In this document: one piece after another, positions 6,320 through 60,745 of the stretch
How the letters are laid out: each line of letters begins with the position of its first letter
Numbering within the stretch: position 1 is the first letter of the stretch
Assembly (NCBI GenBank): GCA_964613815.1
Contig: CAZTKG010000001.1
Location: 8,895-72,894 of the forward strand
DNA: 64,000 bases
Source: an uncultured Gammaproteobacteria bacterium
GTDB taxonomy: Bacteria > Patescibacteriota > Patescibacteriia > UBA9934
Reading direction: 5' to 3'
The notes under the pieces: generated by a model
What the model was told of the DNA's origin: nothing
The model's input: the letters and a program-made list of their open reading frames with translations, nothing else
Databases searched by the model: none
Position numbers and translations under genes: made by a program

Positions 6320-6338
6320 TGGAGTTGTGAGGCTTCTT

Positions 6339-6450: not shown

Positions 6451-6508
6451 AGATTAGAAGATATACGCTTTTTATATGGGAGGTGATGGCGTTATTGGGG
6501 TTTATATT

Positions 6509-6775
6509 ATGAGCAACCGGCGGAATACGGTTGTTTATGTTGGGTGCACTCATGACTTGATTCGGCGAGTTTATGAGCATCGTTTAAAGGCGGTAGATGG
6601 GTTTACGAAGAAATATAATTTGACGAAATTGGTTTATTATAAGCCTTTTGGTTGTCATGATTATGCGCGGGAATGGGAAATTGAGTTGAAGAAGTGGCGG
6701 AGAGCGAAGAAGGATAAGTTGATAGAAGAGGAGAATCCGACTTGGAGGGATTTGTGGGATGAGATTGTTGAGTGA
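6509..6775 (+). CDS. GIY-YIG nuclease family protein
   Basis: MSNRRNTVVYVGCTHDLIRRVYEHR...YYKPF...EWEIELKKW: canonical GIY-YIG motif layout. An upstream in-frame ATG at 6476 is possible. Confidence 0.8.
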   Translation: MSNRRNTVVYVGCTHDLIRRVYEHRLKAVDGFTKKYNLTKLVYYKPFGCHDYAREWEIELKKWRRAKKDKLIEEENPTWRDLWDEIVE

Positions 6776-6794
6776 TGTGCGATGTCTTCTGTAG

Positions 6795-6906
6795 CCATCC
6801 TGAGGAGGGAGCATCAGCGATGGACGGAAGGATCTTGTGTTGTGGTGGTGCTGCGCGGGATGGGATCCTTCCGTTCGTCGGCTACGCTCTCCTCTGCTCA
6901 GGATGG
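6795..6906. repeat. about 110 bp nested palindrome, right copy (same orientation as the left copy)
   Basis: CCATCCTGAGGAGG...GACGGAAGGATC...GGATCCTTCCGT...GTCGGCTACGC...CTCAGGATGG. It shares the asymmetric GTCGGCTACGC segment with the left copy, so the two are direct repeats. Confidence 0.7.
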
Positions 6907-6949
6907 CTGCTAGGGTTTTGGATAAAAAATAAGCGCTCGAGATGAGTGC

Positions 6950-15917: not shown

Positions 15918-15925
15918 ATTTTTAT

Positions 15926-16032
15926 TTCCCATCTCGACCTTGTGGAGAGATCTGATTGTGATAAAACTGCGAGATCTCTCCGTAAGGTCCCCACTTTGCA
16001 GAATGCTTCGTTAGGGGCAGGCGAGATGGGAG
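15926..16032. repeat. RPE-like palindromic element, copy 1 (long form)
   Basis: TTCCCATCTCGACC..GGAGAGATCT..AGATCTCTCC..AAGGTCCCCACTTTGCAGAATGCTTCGTTAGGGG..GAGATGGGAG. It shares its long right arm with copy 6. Confidence 0.8.
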
Positions 16033-20067: not shown

Positions 20068-20074
20068 TGTCTTT

Positions 20075-20158
20075 TTCCCATCTCGACCGAACGAAGTGAG
20101 TGGAGAGATCTGATTGTGGCAGAGCTGCGAGATCTCTCCGCGTTGGTCGAGATGGGAA
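20075..20158. repeat. RPE-like palindromic element, copy 2
   Basis: CCCATCTCGACC..GGAGAGATCT-(18 nt)-AGATCTCTCC..GGTCGAGATGGGAA. It fills the entire GT2/ligase intergenic region. Confidence 0.8.
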
Positions 20159-20166
20159 GTGGATAT

Positions 20167-21849
20167 ATGCTAGATCAATTTTTTGGAACATATACGTGGT
20201 GGACGGTTGGAGGCATTGTTGGGGTGTTTTTGTTGGCGCTTTTTGGGAAGATCGCGGGTTTGTCGGCGCTTGTTTTGATGTTGCTTGGAGTTTTGATTGC
20301 GTATGCTGCGTGGAATTCATTGGAAGTTGGGATGTTTGTCGCGTTTGTGGAGATGTTTGTTGGGGGGCATGGGCGATTGCTAGCTATGGAGGTGCTTGGG
20401 TTTTCGATGAGTTTGCGGATGGTGATTTTTGGCGTTGTGATGGGGGTGTTTTTGGTGCGGTTTTTGCAAGGTCGATTTAAGATCAATATTTTGCCTTGGC
20501 GGGACGGGCCTTGGATGCTTTTGATGGCTGCGGTGGTTTTGGGGGTTGTTGTGGGAGGGTTTGATCATGATGGAGGCGCGGTATTTGATGATGCGAATGG
20601 GTTTTTGGTTGTTGGCTACTTACTTCCTGTGATTGCAATTCGGTGGACGGCTGCATGGCGGCATCGGATGTTGCAGGCTTGTATGGGGGCGTATGTTTGG
20701 GTGACGGGTTTGACGCTTGGACTTGGATATTTGTTTACGCATTTACCAGGGAAGGCGCTTGATTTTGTATATAAGTTTGTGCGAGATGGGCGGATTGCGG
20801 AGGTGACGTTGCAGACGGTCGGGCATTTTGAAGGGGGGAGGTTTTATGAAGTTTTGATTGCTATGCTGGGGGATGGAGGGTATTGGTTTCGGGTGTTTTT
20901 GCCGAATCAGTTTACGATTTTGATTGGGATGTTTTTGCTTCTCGGTGCGGTGGTTTGGAGTAAGAAAGGGCAGTTGTCGGGACGTGTGATGCTGGTTGTT
21001 GGTGGTTTGATTGGGAGTGGGGCTGCGGCTCTTTTGCTTGGGGGATCGCGGAGTTTTTTGGTGGGAGTTTTGGCTGGTGGGGTTTGTTTGGTGGTTTTGA
21101 TGGTTCTTTCCCATCTCGACCGACCGCAGGGAGTGGAGAGATCTCTCCGCGTTGGTCGAGATGGGAGGATGGATGGTGTAATGAAGATTTTGATGATTGG
21201 TGTTGGGTCGTGTTTGGTTGCGTTCATGACGGCTTGGATTGTGGTGGAATTGCCGGTTCCTGCACGGCCTGATTTGAGTGATGCGTATTTTTACAGTACT
21301 TCTGCCGATGAGGGGCGGGCGAGTGCGGTGGCAAGTCGGTGGGATTTGCTTGATCCGATGATGGATGAGATTAAGGGCGCGCCGATGTTGGGATCTGGTT
21401 TTGGAGAAGAGATTACGTATCAGAGTAGCGATCCACGTGTGATTGCAGAGACTGGGGGCGGAGAGTGGACGACGTATCGGTTTGAGTGGGGGTATTTGGA
21501 TATTTGGTTGAAGATGGGAGTCTTGGGGGTGTTGGCGTTTGGGTGGTATTTGATGTCGATTTTTGTGGGCGTGCGACGGTTTGGTAGAGATCGAATATGG
21601 CTTGGGGTGGCTTTGATGTCGGCTGTTGTTGCGCTTTTTGGGACGCATATATTTTCGCCGTATTTGAATCACCCGATTGGGATTGGGTTTATGGTGTTTG
21701 TGTTGGTGTTTTTTGATGGTAGCGATGATGTCCGGCGAGGGAGGGTTGTTGATGAGGTTTTGGAAAAAATGGATTACGTTCGTGTTTCGGTTGGAGCCAC
21801 TTTTGGGCCGGCCGGACAAAAAGTGGTTCGGGAAGGTTTGGAAAAATAA
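20167..21849 (+). CDS. O-antigen ligase/polymerase-like (Wzy_C domain) membrane protein carrying an in-frame repeat-element insertion
   Basis: LLLGGSRSFLVGVLAGGV (the SR-containing helix) ... [element-encoded SHLDRPQGVERSLRVGRDGRMDG] ... MLGSGFGEEITY...EWGYLDIWLKMGVLGVL (GxGxG and ligase C-terminal motif). Start at MLDQFF; the 20116 start lies in repeat copy 2. Confidence 0.65.
   Translation: MLDQFFGTYTWWTVGGIVGVFLLALFGKIAGLSALVLMLLGVLIAYAAWNSLEVGMFVAFVEMFVGGHGRLLAMEVLGFSMSLRMVIFGVVMGVFLVRFLQGRFKINILPWRDGPWMLLMAAVVLGVVVGGFDHDGGAVFDDANGFLVVGYLLPVIAIRWTAAWRHRMLQACMGAYVWVTGLTLGLGYLFTHLPGKALDFVYKFVRDGRIAEVTLQTVGHFEGGRFYEVLIAMLGDGGYWFRVFLPNQFTILIGMFLLLGAVVWSKKGQLSGRVMLVVGGLIGSGAAALLLGGSRSFLVGVLAGGVCLVVLMVLSHLDRPQGVERSLRVGRDGRMDGVMKILMIGVGSCLVAFMTAWIVVELPVPARPDLSDAYFYSTSADEGRASAVASRWDLLDPMMDEIKGAPMLGSGFGEEITYQSSDPRVIAETGGGEWTTYRFEWGYLDIWLKMGVLGVLAFGWYLMSIFVGVRRFGRDRIWLGVALMSAVVALFGTHIFSPYLNHPIGIGFMVFVLVFFDGSDDVRRGRVVDEVLEKMDYVRVSVGATFGPAGQKVVREGLEK
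21107..21168. repeat. RPE-like palindromic element, copy 3 (short form, inside the ligase-like CDS)
   Basis: CCCATCTCGACC GACCGCAGGGAGT GGAGAGATCTCTCC GCGTT GGTCGAGATGGG: perfect 12 bp terminal inverted repeats and a central 14 bp palindrome. It is read through without a stop. Confidence 0.8.
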
Positions 21850-24832: not shown

Positions 24833-24874
24833 CTTGATACAAAAGTGGTCCGTACGGACCACTTTTGTATCAAG
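24833..24874. repeat. 42 bp perfect palindrome CTTGATACAAAAGTGGTCCGTACGGACCACTTTTGTATCAAG (copy 1); a half-copy lies at 24955..24985
   Basis: Identical to the palindrome at 34854..34897. Both copies lie just 3' of an ABC exporter gene and are followed about 100 bp later by a degenerate right-arm copy. Confidence 0.75.
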
Positions 24875-24995
24875 GAGAGATTTTTGGAATGATGCGCGTT
24901 GTCTTTAGTTTGTGTTTTTTTGGAATGGTTGTTTGTATTGTCTTGTTTTGATTTTGGTCCGTACGGATCATTTATGTATCAAGGTGGATGATTAG

Positions 24996-26134: not shown

Positions 26135-26620
26135 TTAGAGATAAGCTTCTTCGGGGATGTCGCCTTTTGTGATTTTTTTGGCTTTTTCGATGAAGAGGAT
26201 GCCGTCTAGGTGGTCGATTTCGTGTTGGAAGACGATGGAGAGGAGTTTGTCGGCTTTGATGCGGACGGGGTCACCGTTTCGATCTTTGGCTTTGATTTTG
26301 CAGGATTTGTGGCGTTCGACAATGCCCCAGACGCCTGGGATGGAGAGGCAGCCCTCTTGGAAGTCGATCTTCGTGTTTGAGGTGGAGATGATTTTGGGGT
26401 TGATGAAGGCTTGTGGGCCTTTTTTGGTTTCGGCGATGATGATGCGGACGTTTTCTCCGATTTGTGGAGCGGCGATACCGATGCCATTTTCTGCCGCCAT
26501 GGTTTCGATCATGTTGTCGATGAGGGTTTGGATTTTTTCTGACTGAATATCGGCATCAGGTACGGGGGCTGATGGGGTGTTAAGGGTTTTGTTTGGGTGG
26601 GTGAGGACGTTGAGTTTCAT
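26135..26620 (-). CDS. def: peptide deformylase
   Basis: GIGIAAPQIG, EGCLSIPG, HEIDHLDG: the three PDF motifs. Confidence 0.9.
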   Translation of the reverse strand: MKLNVLTHPNKTLNTPSAPVPDADIQSEKIQTLIDNMIETMAAENGIGIAAPQIGENVRIIIAETKKGPQAFINPKIISTSNTKIDFQEGCLSIPGVWGIVERHKSCKIKAKDRNGDPVRIKADKLLSIVFQHEIDHLDGILFIEKAKKITKGDIPEEAYL

Positions 26621-28379
26621 AGGTTGTTAGGGTGGTTTCGATGATGCAGGCGTCGGGGAGGGTTTTTAAGAGAGGGGTTATGGAAGGGGTTTGTAATGGA
26701 TGCGTTCTGATGGTGATTTTGTTGTCTTGTTGTTCTGTTTCTGCTTGAGGGGGGAGGGCGCCAATGAAGTCTGGAGGGACTTGATGGGTTTTTGGGGTGA
26801 TGGTGATTTCATCAAATGCAGGTGGGAGGTGGTAGTCGTTTGCGAGGTCGGTTTGGGATTTGATGAAGGATTCTGCGTTTAGGGTTGGGGTGACGATTTC
26901 TGGGATCCAGGTTTGGACGATGTGCGTTGCGTTTTGTTGTTTTGCGATGTAGTGGGAGCGGTAGAGTGTTCGTGCCATTCTTTGTGTTGCGTCTTGGTCA
27001 GCCATGGAAAGTTCTTGGTCGATGCTGATGTGGGCGATGAGGTTGAACGTTTGAGGAAAGAATGGTTTCCAGATTTGGTTGAAGAAGTATTCTGTGGCGA
27101 TGTTGATGTCGGCGTCTGGGTTGCCTGGATGCTGTTTGTCGATAATTTTGATGGAAGCTTTTGGAAACGCTTTTTGGATGATGGATTTGAGGCGGGCGTT
27201 TCCGATGCCTTTTTGTTTCCAGTCCATGGATCTGCAGTTTGGGCAGGAGGAGGCTTTTTGTGGAAGTTTGCAGAGGGTGCAGAATGGAGCGTTGTCTTGG
27301 TTTTTGAGGATCGATTGGCAGGTTTTGCAGCGGAGAATTTGTTTACAGGTGCCGCATTGGAAGCGTCTTGAAGTACCTTTTCGATTGAATGAAAGTAGCA
27401 CGGATTTAGGGGTTTGTAAAGCGTCAGTGATGGCATCGATGAGGCTAGAGGAGAGGAGTGGGAAGGGGGATTGCTGTTCTTCTGCTTTGAGGTCGATGAT
27501 GGTCAGGGTGGGGTGATTATCGAAAACGGATGCTTGGTAGGGAAGGGGGTCTGTTTGGAGGAGGGTGGCGTTATGCTGTTTGGTGAGAAGTTTTGCGGCG
27601 GTGCGGGCGTCGAATCTTGGGTTTCGTTTGGTGTTTTTGTGGGCTTCGTCGGAGGCGCATTCGATAATGACAAATGAAAGGTTGTGAGCTGGGAGAAGAG
27701 CGCCAACTTTTGTGGCGATGAGTGTTGTGCAAGTGCCAGTGCGCCAGGCTTTTTGGATGGTTTGACGGTGGGGTTTTGACGTTTTGCCGTGGATAGCGAG
27801 AGCGTTTGGGAATGAGAGGGATTTGGCGAGATTGTCGACATCTCTTCCTGTGGGAAGGAGGATGAGGGTTTGGTTTGGGGCGTTTTTGGCGAGGATGGAA
27901 AAAAGCGTCCAGGCGGTTTCTGGAGAAGATTGGATGGTGAGGGATTTGGTGGTTTTGATGGTTGGGAGGAGGGATTTGATGCGGTCGGCTGCGTGTTTTG
28001 AGATGGAGGTCTGGGGGTTTGTTGGATTTTCCCATCTCGACCTTGTGGAGAGATCTCTCGACTGCGCTCGAGATGGGGAAGAAGGGAATATGAAAAAGAG
28101 GAGACTTGGGACGGATTGGCCGATGGAAGTAGCAATAGATTCAAGGCGGGTGATGTCGGCTGAGGTTATTAGATTTTTGATCGCGATGCCGGAGATCGGT
28201 TTGGCGTTTGGAACTTCTGCGGTTTGGTTGATTTTGGCGACGATACCGGTTGTCTTGAAACCTCGGATGGTGATGTAGACGAGGTCGCCGATATTAGTGT
28301 TTACTCCTGCTGGAATTTGGTAATCAAAAACACCGAACCTCCTTGGCATTCGGCGGATTGGGTAGACCTGGGCAATCAT
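26580..28379 (-). CDS. priA: primosomal protein N' (PriA helicase) carrying an in-frame repeat-element insertion near residues 95-115
   Basis: N-terminal MIAQVYPIRRMPRRFGVFDYQIP...GDLVYITIRG. Cys4-Cys4 zinc fingers CGTCKQILRCKTCQS...CTLCK...CPNCRS. Helicase motifs are present. The element encodes FPSSPSRAQSRDLSTRSRWE. Confidence 0.85.
   Translation of the reverse strand: MIAQVYPIRRMPRRFGVFDYQIPAGVNTNIGDLVYITIRGFKTTGIVAKINQTAEVPNAKPISGIAIKNLITSADITRLESIATSIGQSVPSLLFFIFPSSPSRAQSRDLSTRSRWENPTNPQTSISKHAADRIKSLLPTIKTTKSLTIQSSPETAWTLFSILAKNAPNQTLILLPTGRDVDNLAKSLSFPNALAIHGKTSKPHRQTIQKAWRTGTCTTLIATKVGALLPAHNLSFVIIECASDEAHKNTKRNPRFDARTAAKLLTKQHNATLLQTDPLPYQASVFDNHPTLTIIDLKAEEQQSPFPLLSSSLIDAITDALQTPKSVLLSFNRKGTSRRFQCGTCKQILRCKTCQSILKNQDNAPFCTLCKLPQKASSCPNCRSMDWKQKGIGNARLKSIIQKAFPKASIKIIDKQHPGNPDADINIATEYFFNQIWKPFFPQTFNLIAHISIDQELSMADQDATQRMARTLYRSHYIAKQQNATHIVQTWIPEIVTPTLNAESFIKSQTDLANDYHLPPAFDEITITPKTHQVPPDFIGALPPQAETEQQDNKITIRTHPLQTPSITPLLKTLPDACIIETTLTTYETQRPHPPKQNP
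28029..28079. repeat. RPE-like palindromic element, copy 4 (short or truncated form, inside the priA CDS)
   Basis: TTCCCATCTCGACC TTGT GGAGAGATCTCTC GACTGCGC TCGAGATGGGG. Confidence 0.75.
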
Positions 28380-31240: not shown

Positions 31241-31483
31241 CTAGATGAGGCGTTTGTTTCGGAAGGCTATTCCGGAGGAGGTTTTTAGGTATTTTTCAAA
31301 GTTCGATGCTGTTTGTCGATTTGGAAAGGCTGCGTAGAAGATGATTTTCCAGGGTTTGAATCGAGCGGTGTGCGGGGATCGTCCGGCGTTGTGGGATTTG
31401 AGTCGGGACGCGAGGTGTTGGGATATGCCTACGTAGGTTTTTGTCGGGAAGCGGGTGCTTCGGAGGATGTAAACGTAGTGCAT
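31241..31483 (-). CDS. GIY-YIG nuclease family protein (second copy in window)
   Basis: MHYVYILRSTRFPTKTYVGISQHLASRLKSHN; the longer ORF to 31552 is rejected. Confidence 0.7.
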   Translation of the reverse strand: MHYVYILRSTRFPTKTYVGISQHLASRLKSHNAGRSPHTARFKPWKIIFYAAFPNRQTASNFEKYLKTSSGIAFRNKRLI

Positions 31484-31512
31484 GCAGACGTTGCTTAGTC
31501 TTGGGTGTGGCC

Positions 31513-31652
31513 CGTTCTTCGCTCTGCGAGCTACGAAGGGCATTCTTCGCATTTTTTTTGATGCGAGTTCGTGCCTTCGAGTTTGTTAGCAATATGGCTT
31601 GCCATTCGTGCCCGTTCTTCGCTCAGCGGCGCCGAGCTACGAAGGGCAAACT
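31513..31652. repeat. two direct copies (31513..31547 and 31606..31652) of GCCCGTTCTTCGCTC(N)GCGAGCTACGAAGGGCA between GIY-YIG-2 and tRNA-Ala
   Basis: Seen directly in the sequence. A palindrome AAACTTCCCCCCGGGAAGTTT (31646..31666) abuts the tRNA 3' end. Confidence 0.4.
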
Positions 31653-31667: not shown

Positions 31668-31743
31668 TGGTGGACCCTAGCGGATTTGAACCGCTGACCT
31701 CCTGCATGCCATGCAGGCGCTCTACCAGCTGAGCTAAGGGCCC
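31668..31743 (-). tRNA. tRNA-Ala (anticodon GGC), CCA encoded
   Basis: - strand: GGGCCCTTAGCTCAGCTGGTAGAGCGCCTGCATGGCATGCAGGAGGTCAGCGGTTCAAATCCGCTAGGGTCCACCA. Cloverleaf fits. G3:U70 Ala identity pair. Anticodon loop AUGGCAU. Confidence 0.85.
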
Positions 31744-31968
31744 GGAAATACACTCTCCCTGCTGGGACTTCATTGTTGTTGACAGGATAACTATATGGAT
31801 GAGGGTCTTTGCAGGGAGAGTGTGAGAAGGAGAGTCCTTGCGAGGTTCGGTGCGCGGCGAGGGTCCGAATCCATCCGCGCGCTGTCTTGCATGGACCTGG
31901 TGCGATATTATTGTTTTTTTGGCTGATTGTCAATAAAAAGAACTCGCTTTTGGCGAGATCACGAGGCG

Positions 31969-32304
31969 TTATTGCGAGTTGAAGATTTCGAGAAGTTCCG
32001 TAAACGGAGCGTTGACTTCTTTTGGGGGTCTGAAGGTTCGGATGGGGCCGGTGCCGTGGGGGAAGTCGAAGGCGAAATGGCAGTATGCGCCTCTATCATC
32101 GGGATTTGCTCTGCACTTGTCTGCGTGGCCGCCGGCGTTGTAGAGGCAATCTTGTGGGGCGCAGGTGATGCCGCCTCCGGCGAGGAGGGAGTCGTCGCGG
32201 AAGAGGAGTCCGACGGTGACGGGGTGCGAGGTCTGAAGGGCTGGGTCTCCGTTGCTGGTTCTGCCTGGGCATTGGACGACGATGGTGCGTTCTGCGGTGT
32301 TCAC
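31969..32304 (-). CDS. hypothetical cysteine-rich protein (111 aa), GC-rich
   Basis: AGGAGA 5 nt upstream of the ATG; five Cys residues. The antisense ORF 31927..32343 is low-complexity and rejected. Confidence 0.45.
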   Translation of the reverse strand: MNTAERTIVVQCPGRTSNGDPALQTSHPVTVGLLFRDDSLLAGGGITCAPQDCLYNAGGHADKCRANPDDRGAYCHFAFDFPHGTGPIRTFRPPKEVNAPFTELLEIFNSQ

Positions 32305-32402
32305 ATGTCTCCTAGGGAGGGTGAAAGTGGAATATATGTGTAGATTTGGTTGATGTCAAGGGTTGTATTGTTTTGAGATTTTGGTAAGGTCTTGGGGTTC
32401 TT

Positions 32403-33005
32403 TTGGAGGTTCTTGTGTCAAAGATTCTTGGTATTGTCGCCATCATCGTTGCGCTTATGTCGGCGGTTCTCTACGTCAAGCAGCTTCTGACGACCGGGAA
32501 GAAGTTGAGCATCTCTACGTGGACGATTTCATCGGTGGTGCTGATGATCAACGCGTTCGTTTTTCACGATTTGGCCGAATCGAATTGGTACGAATCTGGA
32601 AATGTGTTCGTTGTCGCGTTCAGTGTCGTGTTTGTGACCGTTTGGTCGTGGTTTACCGGGCAGTTGACCATGGTGACGATTCCGGATGCTGTTGCTGTGA
32701 CTGGTGCGCTCGGGATTGGATATTTTTGGTTCACGGGTGGTGATACAGCGCTTGCGAGTGGGGCGCTTGTGGCCGTGTGCGGGATTTCGCTTGCAATGAC
32801 AGTGATCGGTCTTGTGGATGGTGATCTTGAAGATGAGCCTGAGGCGTGGTTTTTGACTGCGATTTCGTCGGTGTTTCAGATCTCGGCGATTTATTTCAAT
32901 CCTGATGGGTGGGTTTGGCACCGGTTTATGTATCCGATGGCGATTGGGTTGGTGGGAAACTTGACCGTCGCCTTGGTGATCATGTTCTCGGTGGTGAGGC
33001 GCTGA
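32403..33005 (+). CDS. hypothetical polytopic membrane protein
   Basis: Six hydrophobic segments; no recognised motif. Confidence 0.5.
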   Translation: MEVLVSKILGIVAIIVALMSAVLYVKQLLTTGKKLSISTWTISSVVLMINAFVFHDLAESNWYESGNVFVVAFSVVFVTVWSWFTGQLTMVTIPDAVAVTGALGIGYFWFTGGDTALASGALVAVCGISLAMTVIGLVDGDLEDEPEAWFLTAISSVFQISAIYFNPDGWVWHRFMYPMAIGLVGNLTVALVIMFSVVRR

Positions 33006-33012
33006 ATTCTAG

Positions 33013-33036
33013 CTCTCGATGCGTCGAGGGTTTTTT
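33013..33036 (+). terminator. intrinsic terminator
   Basis: CTCGA-TGCG-TCGAG followed by GGTTTTTT. Confidence 0.55.
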
Positions 33037-33074
33037 GTTAGAATTAGTGCATTGCTCGATTATTGATTTTTTAC

Positions 33075-34835
33075 ATGTTTGGAGATTTTGGAAAGTATAA
33101 AAAAGTTTATTCGCATCTTTTTGATACGTATGGGAGGTCATGGCAGGTTTGTTTGTCGTTTATTCTTCAGATTATCAGTCGGGCTTGTAAGTTTATTTTT
33201 CTTCCGATTGCAATTAGTTTGATTATTGCGAATTTATCGGTTCAGGATTTTGATGGAGCGTATCGGTCTGTGTATTTGTTTGTTGCGTTTTCTTTGACGC
33301 TTGGGATTTTGACGCCAATGGTTCAATATCTTGGGATGAAGGGGGAGAATCCTGTGTATCAGGAATTGACAGGTTCTTATTTTTCCCGGTTGATTACATC
33401 TGATATTGAATATTTGAATTCTCATTTGGCTGGCTACCTCACGGCTGCGACTCGTCATTATGTTGATGCTGGTGTGACGCTTGTTCGGGTGTTTCGCGAT
33501 CGGTTTATAAATACGATTTTGGGGATTTTATTGCCTCTTGTGGTGATTTTTTGGGTAGACATTGTTTTGGGGTTTGTTGCATTAGGGTTGAGTATTGTGC
33601 AAGCGGTTTATTTGGTTTGGGCTTCTCATGCTATTTCGCCATATCGAACAATGTCTCGAGAGCTTTATAAGAAAAATTCTGGAAGAATTGCTGATGTTGT
33701 TTCGAATATTCTCGCTGTGCGTTCTTTTGCTATGGAAGAGCATTACGCGAACCGTGCTCGGAGAGATGCATCTCGTGAGGCGGATGTTTTTACTAAACGT
33801 TATGGTGTTCAGGCTAAGTTGATTGGTGTTCGAACGGGTATTACAGTCATTTTTTTCATGATTCTTCTTTGGCTTGTTGTGGAGCGAATGAGCGGAGGAG
33901 CACTTGATATTGCTGAGGCGGTGCTTATTGTGACGTATACGGGAACTATTTTGACGGGCATTCAGAGCCTTTCTAGTAATTTGGATGAGCATGATGATCT
34001 TGTTGATAAGATTGTGCCCGCGTTTGAGATTTTGGATCGTCAGAATAAGATTTGTGATCTAGATGAGCCGGCGACGTTTGATCATGTGGGAGGAGAGATT
34101 GTTTTTGACCATATTTCGTTTTCATACTATGAGGGGAAGAAGGGGCAAAATGTGTTTGATGGGTTTTCTTTGCGGATTCCGGAAGGGCAGAAGCTTGGGG
34201 TTGTTGGGCTTAGTGGGGCGGGGAAGAGTACGATTACGAAGTTGCTTTTGCGATTTAATGATGTAGATCGTGGACGTGTTTTGATTGATGGGGTTGATAT
34301 TCGAGATGTTCGTCAGCAGGATTTGCGGCGACAGATTTCGTATGTGCCGCAGGAGCCGTTGTTATTTCATGCATCAATTAAGGACAATGTTCTTTTGTCA
34401 GATCCTGACGCTTCTGTGCGTGCATTAAATAAGGCGCTTCGATCGGCGCATGCGTTTGATTTTATTCAGCGGCTTCCGGATGGGGTGGATAGTATTGTTG
34501 GTGAGCGTGGGGTGAAGTTAAGTGGTGGGCAGAAGCAGCGCGTTGCTATTGCTCGGGCGGTGCTTCAGAGTGCGCCTATTATAATTTTGGATGAGGCGAC
34601 AAGCGCGCTTGATAGTGAGAGTGAGCAGATTATTAAGGATTCATTTAGTGAGATATTGAAAGGGAAGACGGCGATTGTTGTTGCGCATCGTTTGAGTACG
34701 CTTTCTGATATGGATCGGATTATTGTGATTGAGGATGGAAAGATTGCAGAGGATGGGACGCATGCGTCGCTACTGAGAAAGCGAGGTGTTTATGCGAATA
34801 TGTGGAAGCGGCAGCTGCGGCACGAGGAAGGTTGA
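33075..34835 (+). CDS. ABC exporter, fused permease/ATP-binding
   Basis: Walker A GLSGAGKST, LSGGQKQR, IIILDEATSALD, VVAHRLST, with an N-terminal 6-TM domain. Confidence 0.85.
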   Translation: MFGDFGKYKKVYSHLFDTYGRSWQVCLSFILQIISRACKFIFLPIAISLIIANLSVQDFDGAYRSVYLFVAFSLTLGILTPMVQYLGMKGENPVYQELTGSYFSRLITSDIEYLNSHLAGYLTAATRHYVDAGVTLVRVFRDRFINTILGILLPLVVIFWVDIVLGFVALGLSIVQAVYLVWASHAISPYRTMSRELYKKNSGRIADVVSNILAVRSFAMEEHYANRARRDASREADVFTKRYGVQAKLIGVRTGITVIFFMILLWLVVERMSGGALDIAEAVLIVTYTGTILTGIQSLSSNLDEHDDLVDKIVPAFEILDRQNKICDLDEPATFDHVGGEIVFDHISFSYYEGKKGQNVFDGFSLRIPEGQKLGVVGLSGAGKSTITKLLLRFNDVDRGRVLIDGVDIRDVRQQDLRRQISYVPQEPLLFHASIKDNVLLSDPDASVRALNKALRSAHAFDFIQRLPDGVDSIVGERGVKLSGGQKQRVAIARAVLQSAPIIILDEATSALDSESEQIIKDSFSEILKGKTAIVVAHRLSTLSDMDRIIVIEDGKIAEDGTHASLLRKRGVYANMWKRQLRHEEG

Positions 34836-34853
34836 TCGTTTGATGTTTCTTCT

Positions 34854-34897
34854 GCTTGATACAAAAGTGGTCCGTACGGACCACTTTTGTATCAAGC
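34854..34897. repeat. 42 bp perfect palindrome (copy 2, CTTGATACAAAAGTGGTCCGTACGGACCACTTTTGTATCAAG); a half-copy lies at 34980..35008
   Basis: Identical to 24833..24874. Confidence 0.75.
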
Positions 34898-35057
34898 AGG
34901 CATGGGGGTGTTTTTTTTGGAAATGATTGATGACTGCCAGTTTTGTCATTGTCTTTTCGATTCTGCCTGTATTTTTTTTGGTCCGTACGGACCATTTTTG
35001 TTACAAGGAGACGGGAGCATCATTTGGTTTAAATGGGGTGTGTTAAAATGGTGGCCT

Positions 35058-35387
35058 ATGCAAATGAATGACTATCAATTTGAGGCTCGGAAGACGGCTA
35101 TTTATCCGGATGTTGGGAGGAATGTGTATTATCCGACGCTTGGTTTGGCTGGAGAAGCTGGAGAGGTTGCGGGGAAGGTGAAGAAGATTCAGCGGGATGA
35201 TGGGGGGATTGTTACGGACGAGCGGCGGGCGGCGCTTGGGAAGGAGCTTGGGGATGTGCTTTGGTATGTTGCGCAGGTGGCGACGGAGCTTGGGTTGACG
35301 ATGGATGGAATTGCGCAGGGGAATTTGGATCGGTTGAAGAGTCGTCAGGATCGGGGGGTTTTGACGGGGGATGGGGATAATCGTTAG
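35058..35387 (+). CDS. MazG-like nucleotide pyrophosphohydrolase
   Basis: GLAGEAGEVAGKVKK (EExGE-like) and ELGDVLWYV; the 57-aa N-terminal extension of ORF 34887 runs through the repeat and is rejected. Confidence 0.65.
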   Translation: MQMNDYQFEARKTAIYPDVGRNVYYPTLGLAGEAGEVAGKVKKIQRDDGGIVTDERRAALGKELGDVLWYVAQVATELGLTMDGIAQGNLDRLKSRQDRGVLTGDGDNR

Positions 35388-35551
35388 TTTTTGGAAAAAA
35401 AGAGGACCCTGCAGACTGCTCGAGGAGTAGTTTGCAGGGTGAGGTCGGCTGATCGTCTTTTGGGATGGTCAGCCTGACACGTCTTCAGCGATTTAAGGAT
35501 CGCATTTTTTTGTTTTCGATCAAGAAAAAAGCCGCCTTTGGGGCGGGGAGG

Positions 35552-36076
35552 CTAGGAGGTCTGGCGGACGGTGTTCGTGGTGGGTCTTGTGATGTTGTTG
35601 AGGTCTTCTCGGGCGTTTAGGCAGAGAGTGAGGCAGCGTTGGCTCAGGGCTTCGGAGGCTTCAGCGTGTGGGAGGGTGCCGAATTGCATGGCTGCGAGGT
35701 GGGTGGCGTCGGATTTGATGCCCTTGAGCGCATCTCGCCAGCCGATGAGGGATTCCATGAATCTCGTCTGCTGATCGGTTGCGTCTTCTCGGTTTGAGAG
35801 TGCTGAGAACGCTTCGCGGAATCTTGGGAGGAAGGGTCGGATGATTTGTATCAGGTCTGTCTTGATGTTGAGGGTCTTGAGGCGAATGGTGGTGCTTGTG
35901 TCGAGCTCGTTGAGGATGTCTCGGATCTCGGACATGACGTCGTCGAGAGTGGGGTTCTTTGGCCTGATGAAGAGGTTGGTCTTGGCGGCGAATTTGGCCA
36001 TTAAGACTAAGATGATGATTCCGAAGAATGCCAGGATGAATTCAGGAGGGAATTCGATTGCCATGGGATAGATCAT
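35552..36076 (-). CDS. hypothetical membrane-anchored protein
   Basis: Start at MIYPMAIEFPPEF with GGAGA 5 nt upstream; one N-terminal TM helix. An intrinsic terminator (GCCGCC-TTTG-GGGCGG + T-run on the - strand) lies at 35525..35550. Confidence 0.5.
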   Translation of the reverse strand: MIYPMAIEFPPEFILAFFGIIILVLMAKFAAKTNLFIRPKNPTLDDVMSEIRDILNELDTSTTIRLKTLNIKTDLIQIIRPFLPRFREAFSALSNREDATDQQTRFMESLIGWRDALKGIKSDATHLAAMQFGTLPHAEASEALSQRCLTLCLNAREDLNNITRPTTNTVRQTS

Positions 36077-36813
36077 GTTGATCTCCGTGTGAAAGAAGAA
36101 GGGCCCTGTAGGCTTGTGTCTGGAAGCTGAGTCCGGGCACATGCCTGCAGGGCGAGGGTGGAGCACACCTGGTTGTTTTAGATGCACCTGTTACCATTTT
36201 TAGTGTGGCATGGGGCTAGGAAGATGTCAAGTCTCAGTAGGATATAAAAGTACCCCGTTCTTTCGATTGTGCGCACGAGTAGCATATGCAGTCGGTTTGG
36301 TTTGATTGCCGTGCGAGGATTCACAATTAAGAGACGGGGCAGAGAGGGTCCCTCGGCCGTCAGGGTTGAGCTGTTGGACCAACGAGAAGGGAATTTCCCG
36401 GTGAGATTCTGAGGCCGAGGGAAGGTGGGGTGGTTGGAATATAACAGTCGGTTTGGATCGAGGCAAATAAAAAACTTCCCCCTCTCAGAATCTTTACTAT
36501 GCTTTGGTAGTTGCAACTACTGAAGCGGAATGCTTCAGCGAAGTATTGAGATTCTGAGGGAGGAAGGGTGAAAGGTCCCCGCGACTCGTGTTTAGGCTGG
36601 GCGGGTGAGATGCCGATAGCAGGATGATGCTGGGCCTGAAACACGAGACGGGGGAGGTGGATCCCTCCCGAGGCGGTGCAGATTGCGCGTCATCGCGCCT
36701 TTTGACTTTTGCTGCGTTACCGTCCCGGGAGGGAAGATATTCCTTCTGTTCGTTGGTTGGAAACCCCCGAGGCAATGGCCGACGAACAGAAGGGATGAAA
36801 TGATCGACGGATA

Positions 36814-36842
36814 AGAATAGCAAAGATTTGGGGTTTTGTCAA
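36814..36842 (-). promoter_or_regulatory. sigma70-like promoter (- strand) heading the long non-coding region
   Basis: - strand TTGACA-17 nt-TATTCT (-35 at 36837..36842, -10 at 36814..36819). Confidence 0.45.
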
Positions 36843-36867
36843 GGGGGAGGAGATGATGGGAAGAAAA

Positions 36868-36890
36868 AAGACCCTTTATTGGTCTTTTTT
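36868..36890. terminator. bidirectional intrinsic terminator downstream of clpB
   Basis: AAGACC-CTTTATT-GGTCTT flanked by an A-run and a T-run. Confidence 0.55.
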
Positions 36891-36897
36891 GGCTGTT

Positions 36898-36972
36898 TTC
36901 CCATCTCGACCTTGTGGAGAGATCTCTGCGATGATCAAGAAGGAAGGATCTCTCCGCAAGGTTGAGATGGGA
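36898..36972. repeat. RPE-like palindromic element, copy 5
   Basis: TTCCCATCTCGACC TTGT GGAGAGATCTCT-(20 nt)-ATCTCTCC GCAAGG TTGAGATGGGAA. Confidence 0.8.
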
Positions 36973-37052
36973 AGGCGGAGGGTTTTTTGAATCAGAATAG
37001 CTTTTCGGTCTCGTTGGATTCGGCCTTCGCAGGACGTTATTTTAAGGGTGGG

Positions 37053-39689
37053 TTATTTTCGTTGTCGGATTTCTAGCATGCCTTTTGTGGCGTCGATGGT
37101 GACGTTTGCGCCTTCTTTGATTTCTCCTGTGATGATTTTCATGGCTAGTGGGTCGAGGATTTCGGTTTGGAGGATGCGTTTGAGGGGGCGGGCGCCGAAT
37201 TCTTGGGAGTAGCCGAGGTCGCCGAGGGTTTTTTGGGCTCTGGCGGTGACTTTGAGGTTCATGGCGCGTTGTTCTTTGAGTCGGGCGGCGATTTGTTCGA
37301 TTTGGAGTTTGACGATTTGGGTGATCTCCTCCTTCTTAAGAGCGTCGAAGAAGATGATTTCATCGATTCGGTTGAGGAATTCGGGTTTGAATTGTTCCTT
37401 TAGCATGTTTAGCACTCTGTCCTTGGTAGTGCTAGGTGCTTGATCTGCGGTGCCGTCCTCGAATCCGATGTCGCCGGTTTTGTGGCCGTTTAGGATGACG
37501 TTTGATCCGACGTTGGAGGTCATGATGATGATGGTGTTTTTGAAGTTGATTTTGCGACCTTTGGAGTCGGTGACATGGCCGTCGTCAAGAATCTGCAACA
37601 AAATGTTGAAGATGTCTGGATGGGCTTTTTCGATTTCGTCGAAGAGGATGACGGAGTAGGGCTTTCGGCGGATGGTCTCGGTAAGTTGGCCGGCTTCGTC
37701 GTAGCCAACATATCCAGGAGGGGAGCCGATCATTTTGCTGATGGCGTGTTTTTCCATGAACTCGGACATGTCGACGCGGACGAGGGCGTCTTCGTCGTTG
37801 AACATGAACTCTGCCAGAGCTTTGGCGAGCTCGGTTTTTCCGACACCGGTAGGGCCGAGGAACATGAAGGAGCCGATGGGTTTGTTCTCCTCGTTAATGC
37901 CGGCTCGGGAGCGTCTGAGGGCGTTTGAGACGGCGGAGAGGGCTCTTGATTGGCCGATGACGCGGCCGGCGAGGTTTGCCTCCATTTTGCTTAAGCGCTC
38001 CATTTCGCTCTGGAGCATTTTGACGACAGGGATGTGGGTCCAGCGGCTGACGACGGTTGCGATGTCTTCTTCTGAGATGTGCTCTTTGAGGAGGCCGCGT
38101 TCTGCTTGGAATTTCTTGAGTTCGTCTTGGAGTCTTTCGAGGCTTTCTCGTAGGGCGGGAATGTCGTTGTAGCGGATTTGGGCGACTTTTTGGAGGTCAC
38201 CTCGACGTTCGGCAATTTCTGCTTCGTTTGAGAGTTTATCGGTTTCGTCTTTTAGGGATCGGATTTGTTCGATGAGAGATTTTTCGTTTTTCCAGCGGAG
38301 TTCGAGTTCGTTTGACTCTTCCTTGATGTCGGCGATTTGTTTTTCGATTTCTTTTTTCCGAGATTTGGATTTTTTACTATCCTCCTTGAGGAGTGATTGG
38401 CGTTCGATTTCCAGGCGCATGATGTCGCGTTTGTAGCGGTCGAGTTCTTCTGGCATGGAATCGATTTGCATGCGGAGGCCAGCGCTTGCTTCGTCCATGA
38501 GGTCAATGGCTTTGTCTGGGAGTTGGCGAGTGGTGATGTAGCGGTTTGAAAGTTCGGCGGCAGAAATGATTGCTTCGTCAGTGATGCGGATGCCGTGGTG
38601 GATTTCGTATTTTTCTTTGATTCCGCGGAGGATCGCGATGGTGTCTTTAACGGTTGGTTCTTTGATCATGACGGTTTGGAATCGGCGTTCAAAGGCGGCG
38701 TCTTTTTCGATGTATTTTTGGTATTCCTTGAGCGTCGTTGCGCCGACAACGCGAAGTTCACCGCGGGCGAGGGCGGGTTTGAGCATGTTTGATGCGTCCA
38801 TGGGGGACTCGTCACCTTTTCCTGCGCCGACGAGGGAATGGAGTTCATCGATGAAGAGGATGATTTGGCCGTTTGAGGCTTCGATTTCGCGGATGACAGC
38901 CTTGAGTCGTTCTTCGAATTCTCCTCGAAATTTGGTTCCGGCGACAAGGGCGCCAAGGTCTAGTGAAACGATTTCTTTGTCTTTGAGCATTTCTGGGACG
39001 TCGCCAGTAGCAATGCGTTGTGCGAGCCCTTCTGCGACGGCTGTTTTTCCGACGCCGGCTTCGCCGATAAGGACAGGGTTATTCTTGGTTCGGCGGACGA
39101 GGACCTGCATGGTTCGGCGGATTTCTTCGTCACGGCCGATGATCGGGTCGATTTTTCCTTGGCGCGCTGCCTCGGTGACGTTGACAGAGTATTTTTCTAG
39201 GGCTTGGAATTTGGCTTCTGGATTGGCAGAATCGACTTTTTGGTTTCCGCGAACGTCTTTGAGCGCTTCGAGGATCGCTTCTTCGTTGACGCGATGTTGG
39301 TTGAGAAGTTTGGAAATTGGGCCGTCGTGAAGGAGGCCGAGAAGCATGTGCTCGGTGGAGATGAATTCATCGCCAAAGTCTTTAGCGCGGTTGCCGGATT
39401 CTTGGAGGACTTTTGCGAGGTTTGGAGAAAGGAGGACCTGGCCAATACCGCCGGTTGCGAATCCTTGTGTTTTTGGAAGGCGTTCGAGAATGCGGTTGAT
39501 GGACATGCGTAGGTTTTCTACGTCGATGTTCATTTTGAGAAGAGTGGAAATGACAATGCCGTCTTCTTGGTTGAGAAGGGCAGAGATGAGGTGAATGGGT
39601 TCAACGCCTTGCTGACCGTTTTCGTTGGCGAGCATTTGGGCGAATTGGATGGCTTGTTGTGATTTTGAGGTGAAATTGTTGGGGATCAT
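37053..39689 (-). CDS. clpB: ATP-dependent chaperone ClpB
   Basis: Two AAA+ modules (GEAGVGKT...; GPTGVGKT...), Clp N-domain and a long coiled-coil M-domain. Start at [12 protein letters not shown]; the 12 extra N-terminal residues of the ORF are translation of the 120 bp repeat. Confidence 0.9.
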
Positions 39690-39698
39690 AATGGGAGG

Positions 39699-39830
39699 GT
39701 TGAATCGCTTCGCTCGTTGAATCACTCGCCTGCGGCATCGTTCGTTTAAAGCGTTGATTCCGGAATCAACGAGCGCAGCGATTCAACGAGTTTCGGCGAT
39801 TAGTCGAACGATTCAACGATTTAAACGTTA
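39699..39830. repeat. about 120 bp palindromic intergenic repeat, copy A (TCGTTGAATCACTCGCC...CGTTGATTCCGGAATCAACG...GATTCAACGATTTAAACGTT)
   Basis: Three copies: A 39699..39830, B 59109..59255, C 60629..60747. Contains the 20 bp perfect palindrome CGTTGATTCCGGAATCAACG. Each copy abuts the 5' end of a - strand gene. Confidence 0.8.
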
Positions 39831-59108: not shown

Positions 59109-59255
59109 GTCGTTGAATCACTCCCGGCGGGGCCGGGTTGTTCGTTTAAGGCGTTGATTTCGGAATGAACGAGCGGAGTCACGTCGTTCGCGAACGACGT
59201 GGCGGAGCGATTAAACGAGTTAGGGCGTTAGCCCACGATTCAACGACTTAAACGT
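59109..59255. repeat. about 120 bp palindromic intergenic repeat, copy B (with a 24 nt hairpin insertion)
   Basis: Aligns end-to-end with copies A and C. Confidence 0.8.
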
Positions 59256-59996: not shown

Positions 59997-60083
59997 GAGA
60001 TCCTCTTGATGAAAACGAAAAGAACGACATGCGGCGGATGATAGCGCAAAATGTCGTTCTTGTCAATGCTGGGTTGTCATCAT

Positions 60084-60190
60084 TCCCATCTCGAGCATCG
60101 TTGAGAGATCTGATGGGGGCAGGGCTGCAAGATCTCTCCACAAGGTCCCCACTTTGCAGAATGCTTCGTTAGGGGTAGGCGAGATGGGAG
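60084..60190. repeat. RPE-like palindromic element, copy 6 (long form)
   Basis: TTCCCATCTCGAGC..GAGAGATCT-(18 nt)-AGATCTCTCC..AAGGTCCCCACTTTGCAGAATGCTTCGTTAGGGG..GAGATGGGAG. Confidence 0.8.
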
Positions 60191-60618: not shown

Positions 60619-60628
60619 AGGCGGAGTT

Positions 60629-60745
60629 TAAATCGTTGAATCACTCGCCGACGGCATCGTTCGTTTAAGGCGTTGATTCCGGAATCAACGAGCGGAGCGA
60701 TTAAACGAGTTTGGGCGATTAGTCCACGATTCAACGATTTAAACG

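What the first reader, a model, noticed from the sequence alone, without database searches (positions are those of the whole stretch)
36190..36895. About 700 bp promoter-equipped non-coding region with internal repeats and no coherent ORF
Between clpB and the downstream - strand membrane-protein gene there is no ORF with a consistent frame. All six frames show short overlapping low-complexity ORFs.

The region opens, on the - strand, with a near-consensus promoter TTGACA-17-TATTCT at 36814..36842, just after the clpB terminator.

It is internally repetitive and palindromic. GAGATTCTGAGG occurs twice, 156 bp apart, with CTCAGAATC complementary to it. GAGACGGGG..GGTCCCTC occurs twice about 315 bp apart. 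Nested stems include CTCAGAATC...GATTCTGAG enclosing GAAGC-GGAAT-GCTTC.

This could be an unannotated structured ncRNA. It could be a very long structured 5' leader of the membrane-protein gene (start 36076). It could be a decayed tandem array of small elements.

I checked it against RNase P, tmRNA and SRP consensus features by eye. It fits none of them.
Basis: seen in the sequence. Interest (0 to 1): 0.6.

Follow-up and report, generated by a model that had tools for sequence, protein, structure and literature searches.

The report
Orphan hairpin-array leader after clpB
Downstream of the chaperone gene clpB, an uncultured marine CPR (Patescibacteria) bacterium has about 750 bases of real, non-coding DNA with its own promoter that folds into seven long hairpins, but it has no relative anywhere else, so it is most likely a species-specific leader or small RNA built from palindromic modules and not a new conserved RNA family.

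Summary
Window 36101-36860 is non-coding, has a near-consensus promoter on the - strand, and is far more structured than shuffled sequence (z -7 to -10). It resolves into seven extended stem-loops, H0-H6.

On the - strand the layout is orderly:
- clpB stop, then a repeat-family hairpin (H8), then terminator T1.
- Promoter P1, then H6, H5, H4 and H3. H3 is a 26-bp stem followed directly by UUUUUUAUUU, so it looks like an intrinsic terminator (T2). This predicts an RNA of about 343 nt.
- A weaker promoter P2, then H2, H1 and H0, then a Shine-Dalgarno site and an orphan gene for a membrane-anchored helical protein.

A codon-position skew test shows the orphan ORF is coding and the ORFs inside the hairpin region are not.

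No Rfam family matches. There is no homologue in about 160 related clpB loci, in phages or in plasmids. All contigs of the same species are identical, so covariation cannot be tested.

The region sits in a variable island, in a genome crowded with palindromic repeat families. A TIGR-Tas stem-loop guide array was tested and rejected. Two relatives carry an unrelated conserved structured RNA at the same position.

Verdict: a real, lineage-specific transcribed hairpin array whose function is not shown. Interest is modest.

The parts
37053..39689 (-). clpB (context; its stop codon is at 37053-37055)
   Evidence: Pfam Clp_N, AAA, AAA_2 and ClpB_D2-small. The exact protein is found on JGI, ENA and Logan contigs.
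36897..36974 (.). H8: a copy of genome-specific palindromic repeat family A (TTCCCATCTCGACC..GGAGAGATCT..AGATCTCTCC..GGTTGAGATGGGAA), in the clpB 3' UTR
   Evidence: There are 8 copies in the window and all score better on the + strand. Assemblies break here: contigs L165, L167 and L168 end at about window 36901.
36864..36890 (.). T1: bidirectional intrinsic terminator (10-bp stem with A-run and T-run), the clpB terminator
   Evidence: Terminator scan and inverted repeat I10.
36814..36842 (-). P1: sigma-70-type promoter TTGACA-17-(TGc)TATTCT; predicted start near 36807
   Evidence: It is one of five perfect TTGACA-17 sites in the window, all on the - strand and all intergenic. The other four precede clpB, tRNA-Ala and two small genes.
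36739..36796 (-). H6 stem-loop
   Evidence: Inverted repeat of 18 nt, 89% complementary; folds.
36662..36734 (-). H5 stem-loop (TCCCTCCC..GGGAGGGA clamp, inner GCGCG hairpin)
36577..36655 (-). H4 stem-loop (CCCCG..GAGACGGGG clamp, branched interior)
36465..36566 (-). H3/T2: about 26-bp stem (CTTCCTCCCTCAGAATCT..AGATTCTGAGAGGGGGAAG on the - strand, 36566->36475) followed directly by TTTTTTATTT (36474->36465). Predicted intrinsic terminator, on the - strand only.
   Evidence: Sequence; fold with MFE equal to the centroid. On the + strand the run is A-rich and lies 5' of the stem.
36438..36466 (-). P2: weaker promoter-like site TTGCCT-17-(TG)TATATT, directly after the T2 U-tract
   Evidence: 9 of 12 matches.
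36349..36422 (-). H2 stem-loop (TCCCTCGGCC..GGCCGAGGGA clamp, two inner hairpins)
36253..36340 (-). H1 stem-loop (CCCCG..GAGACGGGG clamp)
36101..36157 (-). H0 stem-loop, just upstream of the ribosome-binding site
   Evidence: Self-complementarity E 3e-6; 200-nt window 36001-36200 has z -9.1.
35552..36076 (-). Orphan gene: 174 aa, N-terminal transmembrane helix plus helical bundle; GGAG lies 7-8 nt before the ATG
   Evidence: Third-position skew like real genes. No homologue other than itself in 5.8 G proteins; the exhaustive search of 1.84 G representatives added only one weak match to a repetitive protein. AF2 model is helical, pLDDT 71.
35532..35546 (-). T3: terminator of the orphan gene, 6 nt after its stop codon

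Best explanation
This is a lineage-specific, non-coding transcription unit on the - strand. It lies in a variable island between clpB and tRNA-Ala of an uncultured marine CPR bacterium related to Uhrbacteria.

Proposed mechanism:
1. RNA polymerase starts at P1, near 36807, just after the clpB terminator.
2. It transcribes four extended stem-loops: H6, H5, H4 and H3.
3. H3 is a stem of about 26 bp followed directly by U6AU3. It terminates most transcripts and yields an RNA of about 343 nt made of tandem hairpins.
4. Read-through from P1, or initiation at the weaker P2 that overlaps the end of the U-tract, produces the mRNA of the orphan membrane-protein gene. That mRNA has a leader of about 355 nt carrying three more stem-loops (H2, H1, H0).

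The hairpins probably arose as palindromic modules of the kind that fills the intergenic DNA of this genome, partly by duplication of a two-hairpin unit. They now act in cis as a terminator or attenuator, an insulator from clpB, and transcript-stabilising structures. They are probably not a trans-acting conserved RNA.

Shown: non-coding status, the hairpins, the promoter and terminator motifs and their order, and the lack of homologues.
Inferred: transcription itself, termination at T2, and any regulatory role.
For: - Non-coding: no gene calls in the region. The internal ORFs show no third-position skew, whereas the orphan ORF shows it (pos3 GC skew 0.59, AT skew -0.62, against 0.6-0.86 and -0.36 to -0.68 in clpB, PriA, atpD, the ABC transporter and MurJ). 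There is no pseudogene trace against relatives.
- Structure: z -9.1 for 36462-36808 on the - strand, with MFE equal to the centroid; z -4.6 for the leader. The window-wide scan puts this neighbourhood among the most structured parts of the window.
- Promoter: P1 has the same perfect TTGACA-17 form as the sites upstream of clpB, tRNA-Ala and two small genes. All five are on the - strand and intergenic.
- Strand: the U-tract follows H3 only on the - strand. No promoter-like site was found on the + strand.
- The downstream gene has its own SD and its own terminator.
- Lineage-specific: absent after clpB in about 160 related loci, where the median gap is about 55 nt. It is absent in the 76% and 73% ClpB relatives. 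Synteny shows a variable island between clpB and the 460aa-LigB-PriA block.
- Palindromic context: families A, B and C of palindromic repeats occupy many intergenic regions of this window.
Against: - There is no transcript evidence.
- There is no covariation. All same-species contigs are identical across the hairpins, and the single SNP lies in the orphan ORF.
- Every hairpin is more stable on the + strand: 27 G.U pairs against 5. This ratio is what the extreme mutation bias predicts, so it neither supports nor excludes the - strand.
- P2 is only a 9 of 12 match.
- A leader of about 740 nt from P1 is far longer than at the other four TTGACA promoters, where the gap is 27-160 nt.
- H0-H6 have no second copy in the 64-kb window or in the other same-species DNA held, so an origin from repeat elements is an inference.
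Confidence: 0.5

Rival explanations
1. It is a selfish or neutral mosaic of palindromic DNA elements (BIME-, REP- or MITE-like) that has accumulated in a variable intergenic hot-spot. Under this reading the hairpins matter at the DNA or ssDNA level or not at all, and the promoter simply serves the orphan gene.
For: - The genome carries at least three palindromic repeat families. A family A copy directly abuts the region.
- H0-H6 are in the same size class (57-100 nt) and are simple extended imperfect palindromes.
- They are not conserved in relatives.
- Weak internal direct repeats suggest duplication of modules.
- The G.T to A.C mismatch ratio equals the neutral mutation bias.
Against: - H0-H6 do not match the family A profile and have no other copy in the window.
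- No transposase lies nearby.
- The ordered promoter, hairpins, U-tract, promoter arrangement is strand-specific.
Confidence: 0.3
2. It is a stand-alone structured ncRNA transcribed from the + strand (about 36190->36890) and ending at the bidirectional terminator T1.
For: Each hairpin is 1-14 kcal/mol more stable on the + strand. T1 has a T-run on the + strand too.
Against: - There is no sigma-70-like promoter on the + strand in 35500-37500.
- The + strand stability advantage is explained by the G+T-rich composition. The z-score is no better than on the - strand (-7.4 against -9.8).
- Such an RNA would be antisense to the leader of a real gene.
Confidence: 0.06
3. It is a stem-loop TIGR-type guide-RNA array, or another array processed into single hairpin RNAs, serving an RNA-guided effector. 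Such arrays have been described in CPR bacteria.
For: - It consists of tandem hairpins with variable palindromic stems in a CPR genome. Stem-loop TIGR arrays lack conserved repeats and are frequent in CPR (PMC12045711; bioRxiv 10.64898/2026.09.09.750476).
- CUU lies at the stem base of 4 of 7 hairpins on the - strand.
Against: - No Nop/Tas protein is present. The adjacent orphan is a membrane-anchored helical bundle with only generic fold hits. No Nop domain appears within +-10 kb.
- The loops are 22-55 nt with different interiors. They show no shared box C/D-like motifs and no equal dual spacers.
- CUU is expected often on a pyrimidine-rich strand.
Confidence: 0.03
4. It is a diverged orthologue of the conserved structured RNA ('RNA X') that follows clpB in two relatives, or a housekeeping RNA that Rfam misses.
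For: L084 and L086 have the same layout: clpB terminator, then a TTGACA promoter, then a structured RNA of about 470 nt, then a terminator.
Against: - The covariance model of the RNA X cloverleaf finds only L084 and L086. Its best score in this region is 7.1 bits, E 0.5, and only the closing stem aligns.
- nhmmer finds nothing.
- There are no Rfam hits and ARAGORN finds no tmRNA.
Confidence: 0.04

Closest known systems
BIME / REP clusters of enterobacteria and Correia elements (CREE) of Neisseria
   Same: These are short imperfect palindromes packed into intergenic DNA, often in 3' UTRs. They are co-transcribed, can carry promoter and terminator activity, and can stabilise mRNA. H8 next to the region is a true multi-copy element of this kind.
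   Different: H0-H6 are single-copy in the DNA available and match no repeat family. No RAYT/IS200-type transposase was seen within +-10 kb.
Long structured 5' leaders with an intrinsic-terminator attenuator (for example riboswitch, T-box or protein-dependent antitermination leaders)
   Same: A promoter far upstream of the gene, a strong hairpin plus U-tract inside the leader, and further structure before the RBS.
   Different: There is no recognisable aptamer, no antiterminator alternative and no Rfam family. The leader is unusually long and consists of independent closed hairpins. The regulated gene is an orphan.
Stem-loop TIGR arrays (TIGR-Tas systems) of CPR bacteria
   Same: A tandem array of hairpins with non-conserved palindromic stems, sometimes with an extra hairpin in the loop, in a CPR genome.
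   Different: No Tas/Nop protein is present. There are no box C/D-like motifs, no uniform dual 8-12-nt spacers, and unit architecture is not constant.
'RNA X': an unnamed structured RNA downstream of clpB in two Uhrbacteria-related contigs (L084 = Ga0076162_102, L086 = Ga0233425_10000008)
   Same: It has the same position and strand relative to clpB, its own TTGACA promoter and terminator, a length of 340-470 nt, a modular hairpin or cloverleaf build, and no Rfam family.
   Different: No sequence or covariance-model similarity was detected.

Membership tests
Any Rfam 15 family (including RNase P, tmRNA, SRP, 6S, OLE, GOLLD, ROOL, HEARO, raiA, T-box, riboswitches) | Covariance-model score at or above the family gathering threshold | tested here: not met
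   The only hit in the window is tRNA-Ala. In E-value mode on 35900-37200 the best hits are 29 bits against cut-offs of 55-88, and they fall on H8/T1, not on the region. ARAGORN finds no tmRNA.
REP/BIME/MITE-like palindromic repeats | Multiple near-identical copies dispersed in the same genome | tested here: not met
   H0-H6 have no second copy in the 64-kb window or in the other same-species DNA held, and no match to the family A profile. Only about 7% of a genome of about 1 Mb was searchable. H8 (36897-36974) does meet this feature, with 8 copies.
REP/BIME/MITE-like palindromic repeats | Imperfect palindromes of tens to about 150 nt confined to intergenic DNA | tested here: met
   Seven hairpins of 57-100 nt.
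REP/BIME/MITE-like palindromic repeats | Cognate transposase (RAYT/IS200-IS605 type or other) in the genome | not tested
   None is seen among the Pfam-annotated genes within +-10 kb. The rest of the genome is not available.
TIGR-Tas stem-loop array | Adjacent gene for a Nop-domain Tas protein | tested here: not met
   The orphan neighbour has no Pfam, NCBIfam or PDB-sequence hit. Its AF2 model (pLDDT 71) matches only generic helical bundles (E>=0.17) and none of the 50 matches listed is a Nop or Tas structure. No Nop domain is present in the +-10 kb gene list.
TIGR-Tas stem-loop array | Each unit has two 8-12-nt spacers flanked by conserved box C/box D-like motifs, with a constant unit architecture | tested here: not met
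   The loops are 22-55 nt with one or two different inner hairpins and asymmetric unpaired stretches. No shared motif was found.
TIGR-Tas stem-loop array | Tandem units closed by variable palindromic stems; CUU at the stem base | tested here: inconclusive
   Tandem palindromic stems are present. CUU is at or near the base in 4 of 7 hairpins on the - strand, but that strand is pyrimidine-rich.
Intrinsic (Rho-independent) terminator (for H3/T2) | G+C-rich stem immediately followed by a U-tract on the transcribed strand | tested here: met
   On the - strand the stem ends ..GAGAGGGGGAAG and is followed at once by UUUUUUAUUU. The simple scan missed it only because its loop limit is 8 nt. Termination activity was not tested.
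RNA X (clpB-downstream RNA of L084 and L086) | Match to a covariance model of its cloverleaf domain | tested here: not met
   Model R1 scores 121 and 107 bits on its two source sequences. It gives nothing in the window with default filters, and 7.1 bits (E 0.5) with filters off.
Protein-coding gene | Open frame with the genome's third-codon-position skew, or a homologue | tested here: not met

The most novel reading that the evidence does not exclude
The P1-to-T2 transcript is a new kind of hairpin-array RNA that is cut into individual stem-loop RNAs. These could be guide-like or decoy-like RNAs for an effector not yet recognised. Together with the unrelated RNA X of sister lineages, it would mark a fast-evolving slot for regulatory RNAs linked to clpB in Uhrbacteria-type CPR bacteria.
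Probability: 0.06. Interest if true: 0.7.

Novelty: new member of a known kind. Interest (0 to 1): 0.3.

Why it matters
If it is transcribed as proposed, it adds one orphan example of a long hairpin-array leader or sRNA in a phylum where almost no non-coding RNAs have been described. It also shows how palindromic modules can be turned into promoter, terminator and leader architecture.

On present evidence it does not define a conserved RNA family and does not open a long-standing question.

Its practical value is as a caution. In this genome intergenic DNA is dominated by palindromic elements, and the strand bias is extreme. High folding z-scores and G.U asymmetry therefore cannot be read as evidence for a functional RNA.

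Tried and rejected
- Rfam at gathering thresholds and in E-value mode: nothing.
- ARAGORN tmRNA search: nothing.
- blastn, nhmmer and six-frame tblastn of 35388-37052 against about 160 related clpB loci from GTDB genomes and JGI metagenomes: nothing.
- Distant blastn against phages and plasmids: nothing.
- Two pattern scans of viral contigs: only chance 14-mer hits, or none.
- Same-species contigs, fetched in the hope of finding polymorphism: identical across the hairpins.
- The GIY-YIG gene, used to try to reach other loci of the same genome: it is single-copy.
- Tandem Repeats Finder: no array.
- Family A profile against H0-H6: no match.
- TIGR-Tas hypothesis: rejected.
- RNA X homology by nhmmer and covariance model: rejected.
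- G.U versus A.C asymmetry as a way to tell the transcribed strand: uninformative, because four-fold sites show a mutation bias of similar size.
- 'Far from neutral composition' as evidence for selection: the candidate intergenic gaps picked out of the skew scan all show a similar GC skew of about 0.1-0.3 (that scan also listed real genes as gaps), so it does not discriminate.
- Promoter directly after clpB as a special feature: 30 of 150 relatives have one, so it is not special.
- DnaA-box or origin idea: dropped, because the GC skew does not change sign.

Full report
**Source and context.** The window matches JGI metagenome contig Ga0105016_1000099 and a 579-kb ENA scaffold. Identical copies occur in several Logan assemblies. 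The best ClpB matches in GTDB are MAGs labelled Candidatus Uhrbacteria or Magasanikbacteria, and mislabelled 'Gammaproteobacteria' MAGs, at no more than 73% identity. The organism is therefore an uncultured CPR/Patescibacteria bacterium. clpB is 37053-39689 on the - strand.

**The observation.**
- The region folds far better than dinucleotide shuffles on both strands (z -7.4 and -9.8).
- It holds 5 of the 25 longest hairpins of the 64-kb window.
- It resolves into seven extended stem-loops: H0 36101-36157, H1 36253-36340, H2 36349-36422, H3 36475-36566, H4 36577-36655, H5 36662-36734 and H6 36739-36796.
- Each stem-loop has a clamp that is C-rich on one arm and G-rich on the other (TCCCTC..GAGGGA or CCCCG..CGGGG) and one or two small inner hairpins.
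- The direct repeats are marginal on their own (E 0.02-0.4) and Tandem Repeats Finder sees no array.
- The junction GAGACGGGG-N7-9-TCCCTC is shared by the pairs H1/H2 and H4/H5. This hints at an old duplication of a two-hairpin module.

**Coding or not.** This genome offers its own test for coding sequence. At four-fold degenerate sites the + strand is 46-50% G, 32% T, 13-14% A and 5-7% C, whichever way the gene points.
- Real genes therefore show a third-position GC skew of 0.6-0.86 and an AT skew of -0.36 to -0.68.
- The 174-aa ORF at 35552-36076 shows this signal (0.59 and -0.62). It also has GGAG before its ATG and a terminator 6 nt after its stop. It is a real gene.
- The four ORFs inside 36178-36823 show no such signal.
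- Gene callers call nothing in the region. There are no Pfam hits and no pseudogene trace against relatives.
- The 174-aa protein is a true orphan. It finds only itself in 5.8 G proteins; an exhaustive HMMER scan of 1.84 G representatives adds only one weak match (E 5e-5) to a repetitive 1245-aa protein. It models as a transmembrane helix plus a helical bundle.

**Layout on the - strand.**
- After the clpB stop comes H8 (36897-36974), a member of repeat family A.
- Next is the bidirectional terminator T1 (36864-36890).
- Next is P1, TTGACA-17-(TGc)TATTCT, at 36842-36814.
- A scan of the whole window found five perfect TTGACA-17 sites. All are on the - strand and all are intergenic. The other four sit upstream of clpB, tRNA-Ala, a 111-aa gene and an 83-aa gene. 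P1 is therefore very probably a working promoter.
- Downstream of P1 come H6, H5, H4 and H3.
- The H3 stem extends to CTTCCTCC../..GGGGGAAG and is followed at once by UUUUUUAUUU (36474-36465). This is an intrinsic terminator on the - strand only.
- The predicted RNA of about 343 nt folds into four closed hairpins, with MFE equal to the centroid and z -9.1.
- A second, weaker promoter-like site (TTGCCT-17-TATATT, 36466-36438) overlaps the end of the U-tract.
- It is followed by H2, H1 and H0 and then the SD and ATG of the orphan gene (z -4.6).
- No promoter-like site was found on the + strand.

**Which strand.** Every hairpin is more stable on the + strand: 27 G.U pairs against 5. However, arm-by-arm comparison gives 21 G.T against 6 A.C mismatches. 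That ratio is what the C-to-T and A-to-G bias seen at four-fold sites predicts. The asymmetry therefore does not identify the transcribed strand.

**Homologues.** There are none.
- Rfam finds nothing.
- blastn and nhmmer find nothing in about 160 clpB loci from GTDB genomes and JGI metagenomes.
- Phage and plasmid collections give nothing.
- The closest ClpB relatives, at 76% (L169) and 73% (L004), have other genes directly after clpB. The median spacer after clpB in 140 relatives is about 55 nt.
- Same-species contigs are identical across the hairpins. The single SNP lies in the orphan ORF. No covariation test is possible.
- Synteny is conserved on both sides: M23-gltX-wecG-DUF2238 on one side of clpB and 460aa-LigB-PriA on the other. 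What lies between clpB and that second block differs from genome to genome.
- The hairpin region and the orphan gene therefore sit in a variable island.

**Genome background.** The window carries at least three species-specific palindromic repeat families.
- Family A has 8 copies, all in one orientation. Assemblies break at them.
- Family B includes a perfect 48-nt palindrome.
- Family C has a copy in the clpB 5' UTR.

These families are documented. The candidate intergenic gaps picked out of a skew scan all have a GC skew of about 0.1-0.3, far below the 0.75 seen at four-fold sites, although that scan also listed real genes as gaps. High structure is thus normal for spacers in this genome. 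H0-H6 nevertheless match no family and have no second copy in the DNA available.

**TIGR-Tas.** Stem-loop TIGR arrays are tandem hairpins with non-conserved palindromic stems and are frequent in CPR (PMC12045711; bioRxiv 10.64898/2026.09.09.750476). I tested this idea.
- No Nop/Tas protein is adjacent or within +-10 kb.
- The loops lack the uniform architecture of a dual spacer flanked by box C/D-like motifs.

The idea is rejected.

**RNA X.** Two relatives at 70-71% ClpB identity, L084 and L086, have the same layout after clpB: terminator, TTGACA promoter, a structured RNA of about 470 nt (z -7.4), then a terminator. In L086 this is followed by tRNA-Ala(GGC).
- The two RNAs share a cloverleaf-like domain with 4 compensatory pairs out of 18, and a long CUGCGGGG..CCCCGCAG helix.
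- Neither has an Rfam match.
- A covariance model of the cloverleaf finds only those two loci among 82, and nothing significant in the window.
- RNA X is therefore a positional analogue and not a demonstrable homologue.

**Verdict.** The finding is real. It is best read as a lineage-specific hairpin array transcribed from the - strand. It consists of a terminated RNA of about 343 nt followed by a structured leader of about 355 nt for an orphan membrane-protein gene, probably assembled from palindromic modules. A purely DNA-level palindrome mosaic remains a serious rival. Function is inferred and not shown, and nothing places the region in a known or new conserved RNA family.

Noticed in passing
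window 1-64000: There is extreme strand compositional asymmetry. Bulk GC skew is +0.12 to +0.5 and never changes sign. At four-fold degenerate sites the + strand is 46-50% G and 5-7% C (GC skew +0.74 to +0.81, AT skew about -0.4) for genes on both strands. A bulk disparity of similar size was reported for some CPR Microgenomates and attributed to unidirectional replication (PMC7143001). This organism is related to Uhrbacteria.
   Followed up: partly
window 6337-6452, 6793-6907, 15925-16032, 20074-20158, 21107-21167, 28028-28077, 36897-36973, 60083-60190: Palindromic repeat family A (TTCCCATCTCGACC..GGAGAGATCT..AGATCTCTCC..GGTCGAGATGGGAA) has 8 copies in 64 kb. All are in the same orientation on the + strand, whatever the direction of the neighbouring genes. 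The exact terminal 13-mer occurs only in contigs of this organism among the related loci held. Short-read assemblies break at the copies.
   Followed up: partly
window 28028-28080 (inside PriA ORF 26580-28379) and 21107-21168 (inside ORF 20116-21849): Family A copies lie inside open reading frames without breaking them. PriA here is 599 aa, against 557-562 aa in relatives. This resembles the in-frame palindromic elements of Rickettsia.
   Followed up: partly
window 6337-6907; 31505-31650: Two family A copies flank a small GIY-YIG nuclease gene (6476-6775). A second GIY-YIG gene (about 31241-31481, - strand) is preceded by two copies of another hairpin (GCCCTTCGTAGCTCG..GAGCGAAGAACGGGC). This raises the possibility of a link between GIY-YIG genes and palindromic repeats.
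   Followed up: no
window 24833-24983 and 34851-35011: Repeat family B has a perfect 42-48-nt palindrome (CTTGATACAAAAGTGGTCCGT/ACGGACCACTTTTGTATCAAG). At both sites a second, partial copy lies about 125 nt downstream. One site overlaps the annotated start region of mazG.
   Followed up: no
window 39699-39819, 59120-59255, 60626-60745: Repeat family C is an element of about 110-130 nt (GTTTAAATCGTTGAATCG..). It occurs in the clpB 5' UTR downstream of the clpB promoter, between atpD and atpC, and before a 202-aa gene. It could be a shared regulatory or processing element.
   Followed up: no
L084 6694-7205; L086 6692-7190: 'RNA X' is a structured RNA of about 470 nt with its own promoter and terminator, directly downstream of clpB in two Uhrbacteria-related contigs. 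It has a cloverleaf-like domain (4 compensatory pairs out of 18 between the two) and a long CUGCGGGG..CCCCGCAG helix. It has no Rfam match. In L086 it lies just upstream of tRNA-Ala(GGC). It is a candidate new RNA family.
   Followed up: partly
window 31668-37052, compared with L299, L300, L086: The stretch between clpB and the conserved 460aa-LigB-PriA block (with tRNA-Ala) is a variable island. Its content differs in every relative examined. Here it holds the hairpin region, the orphan gene, mazG, an ABC transporter, two membrane or unknown ORFs and a 111-aa gene.
   Followed up: partly
window 32359, 31933, 36842, 39871, 60066 (- strand): All five perfect TTGACA-17-TAnnnT promoter matches in the window are on the - strand and intergenic. 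None is on the + strand, even though about a third of the genes are on that strand.
   Followed up: partly
L037 8643-9240, L133 6613-6900, L119 6652-6760, L124 6649-6900: Many other CPR relatives carry very long, near-perfect palindromes (40-110 nt arms) directly downstream of clpB. Among 150 loci, 21 have z at or below -4 for the 400 nt after clpB.
   Followed up: no
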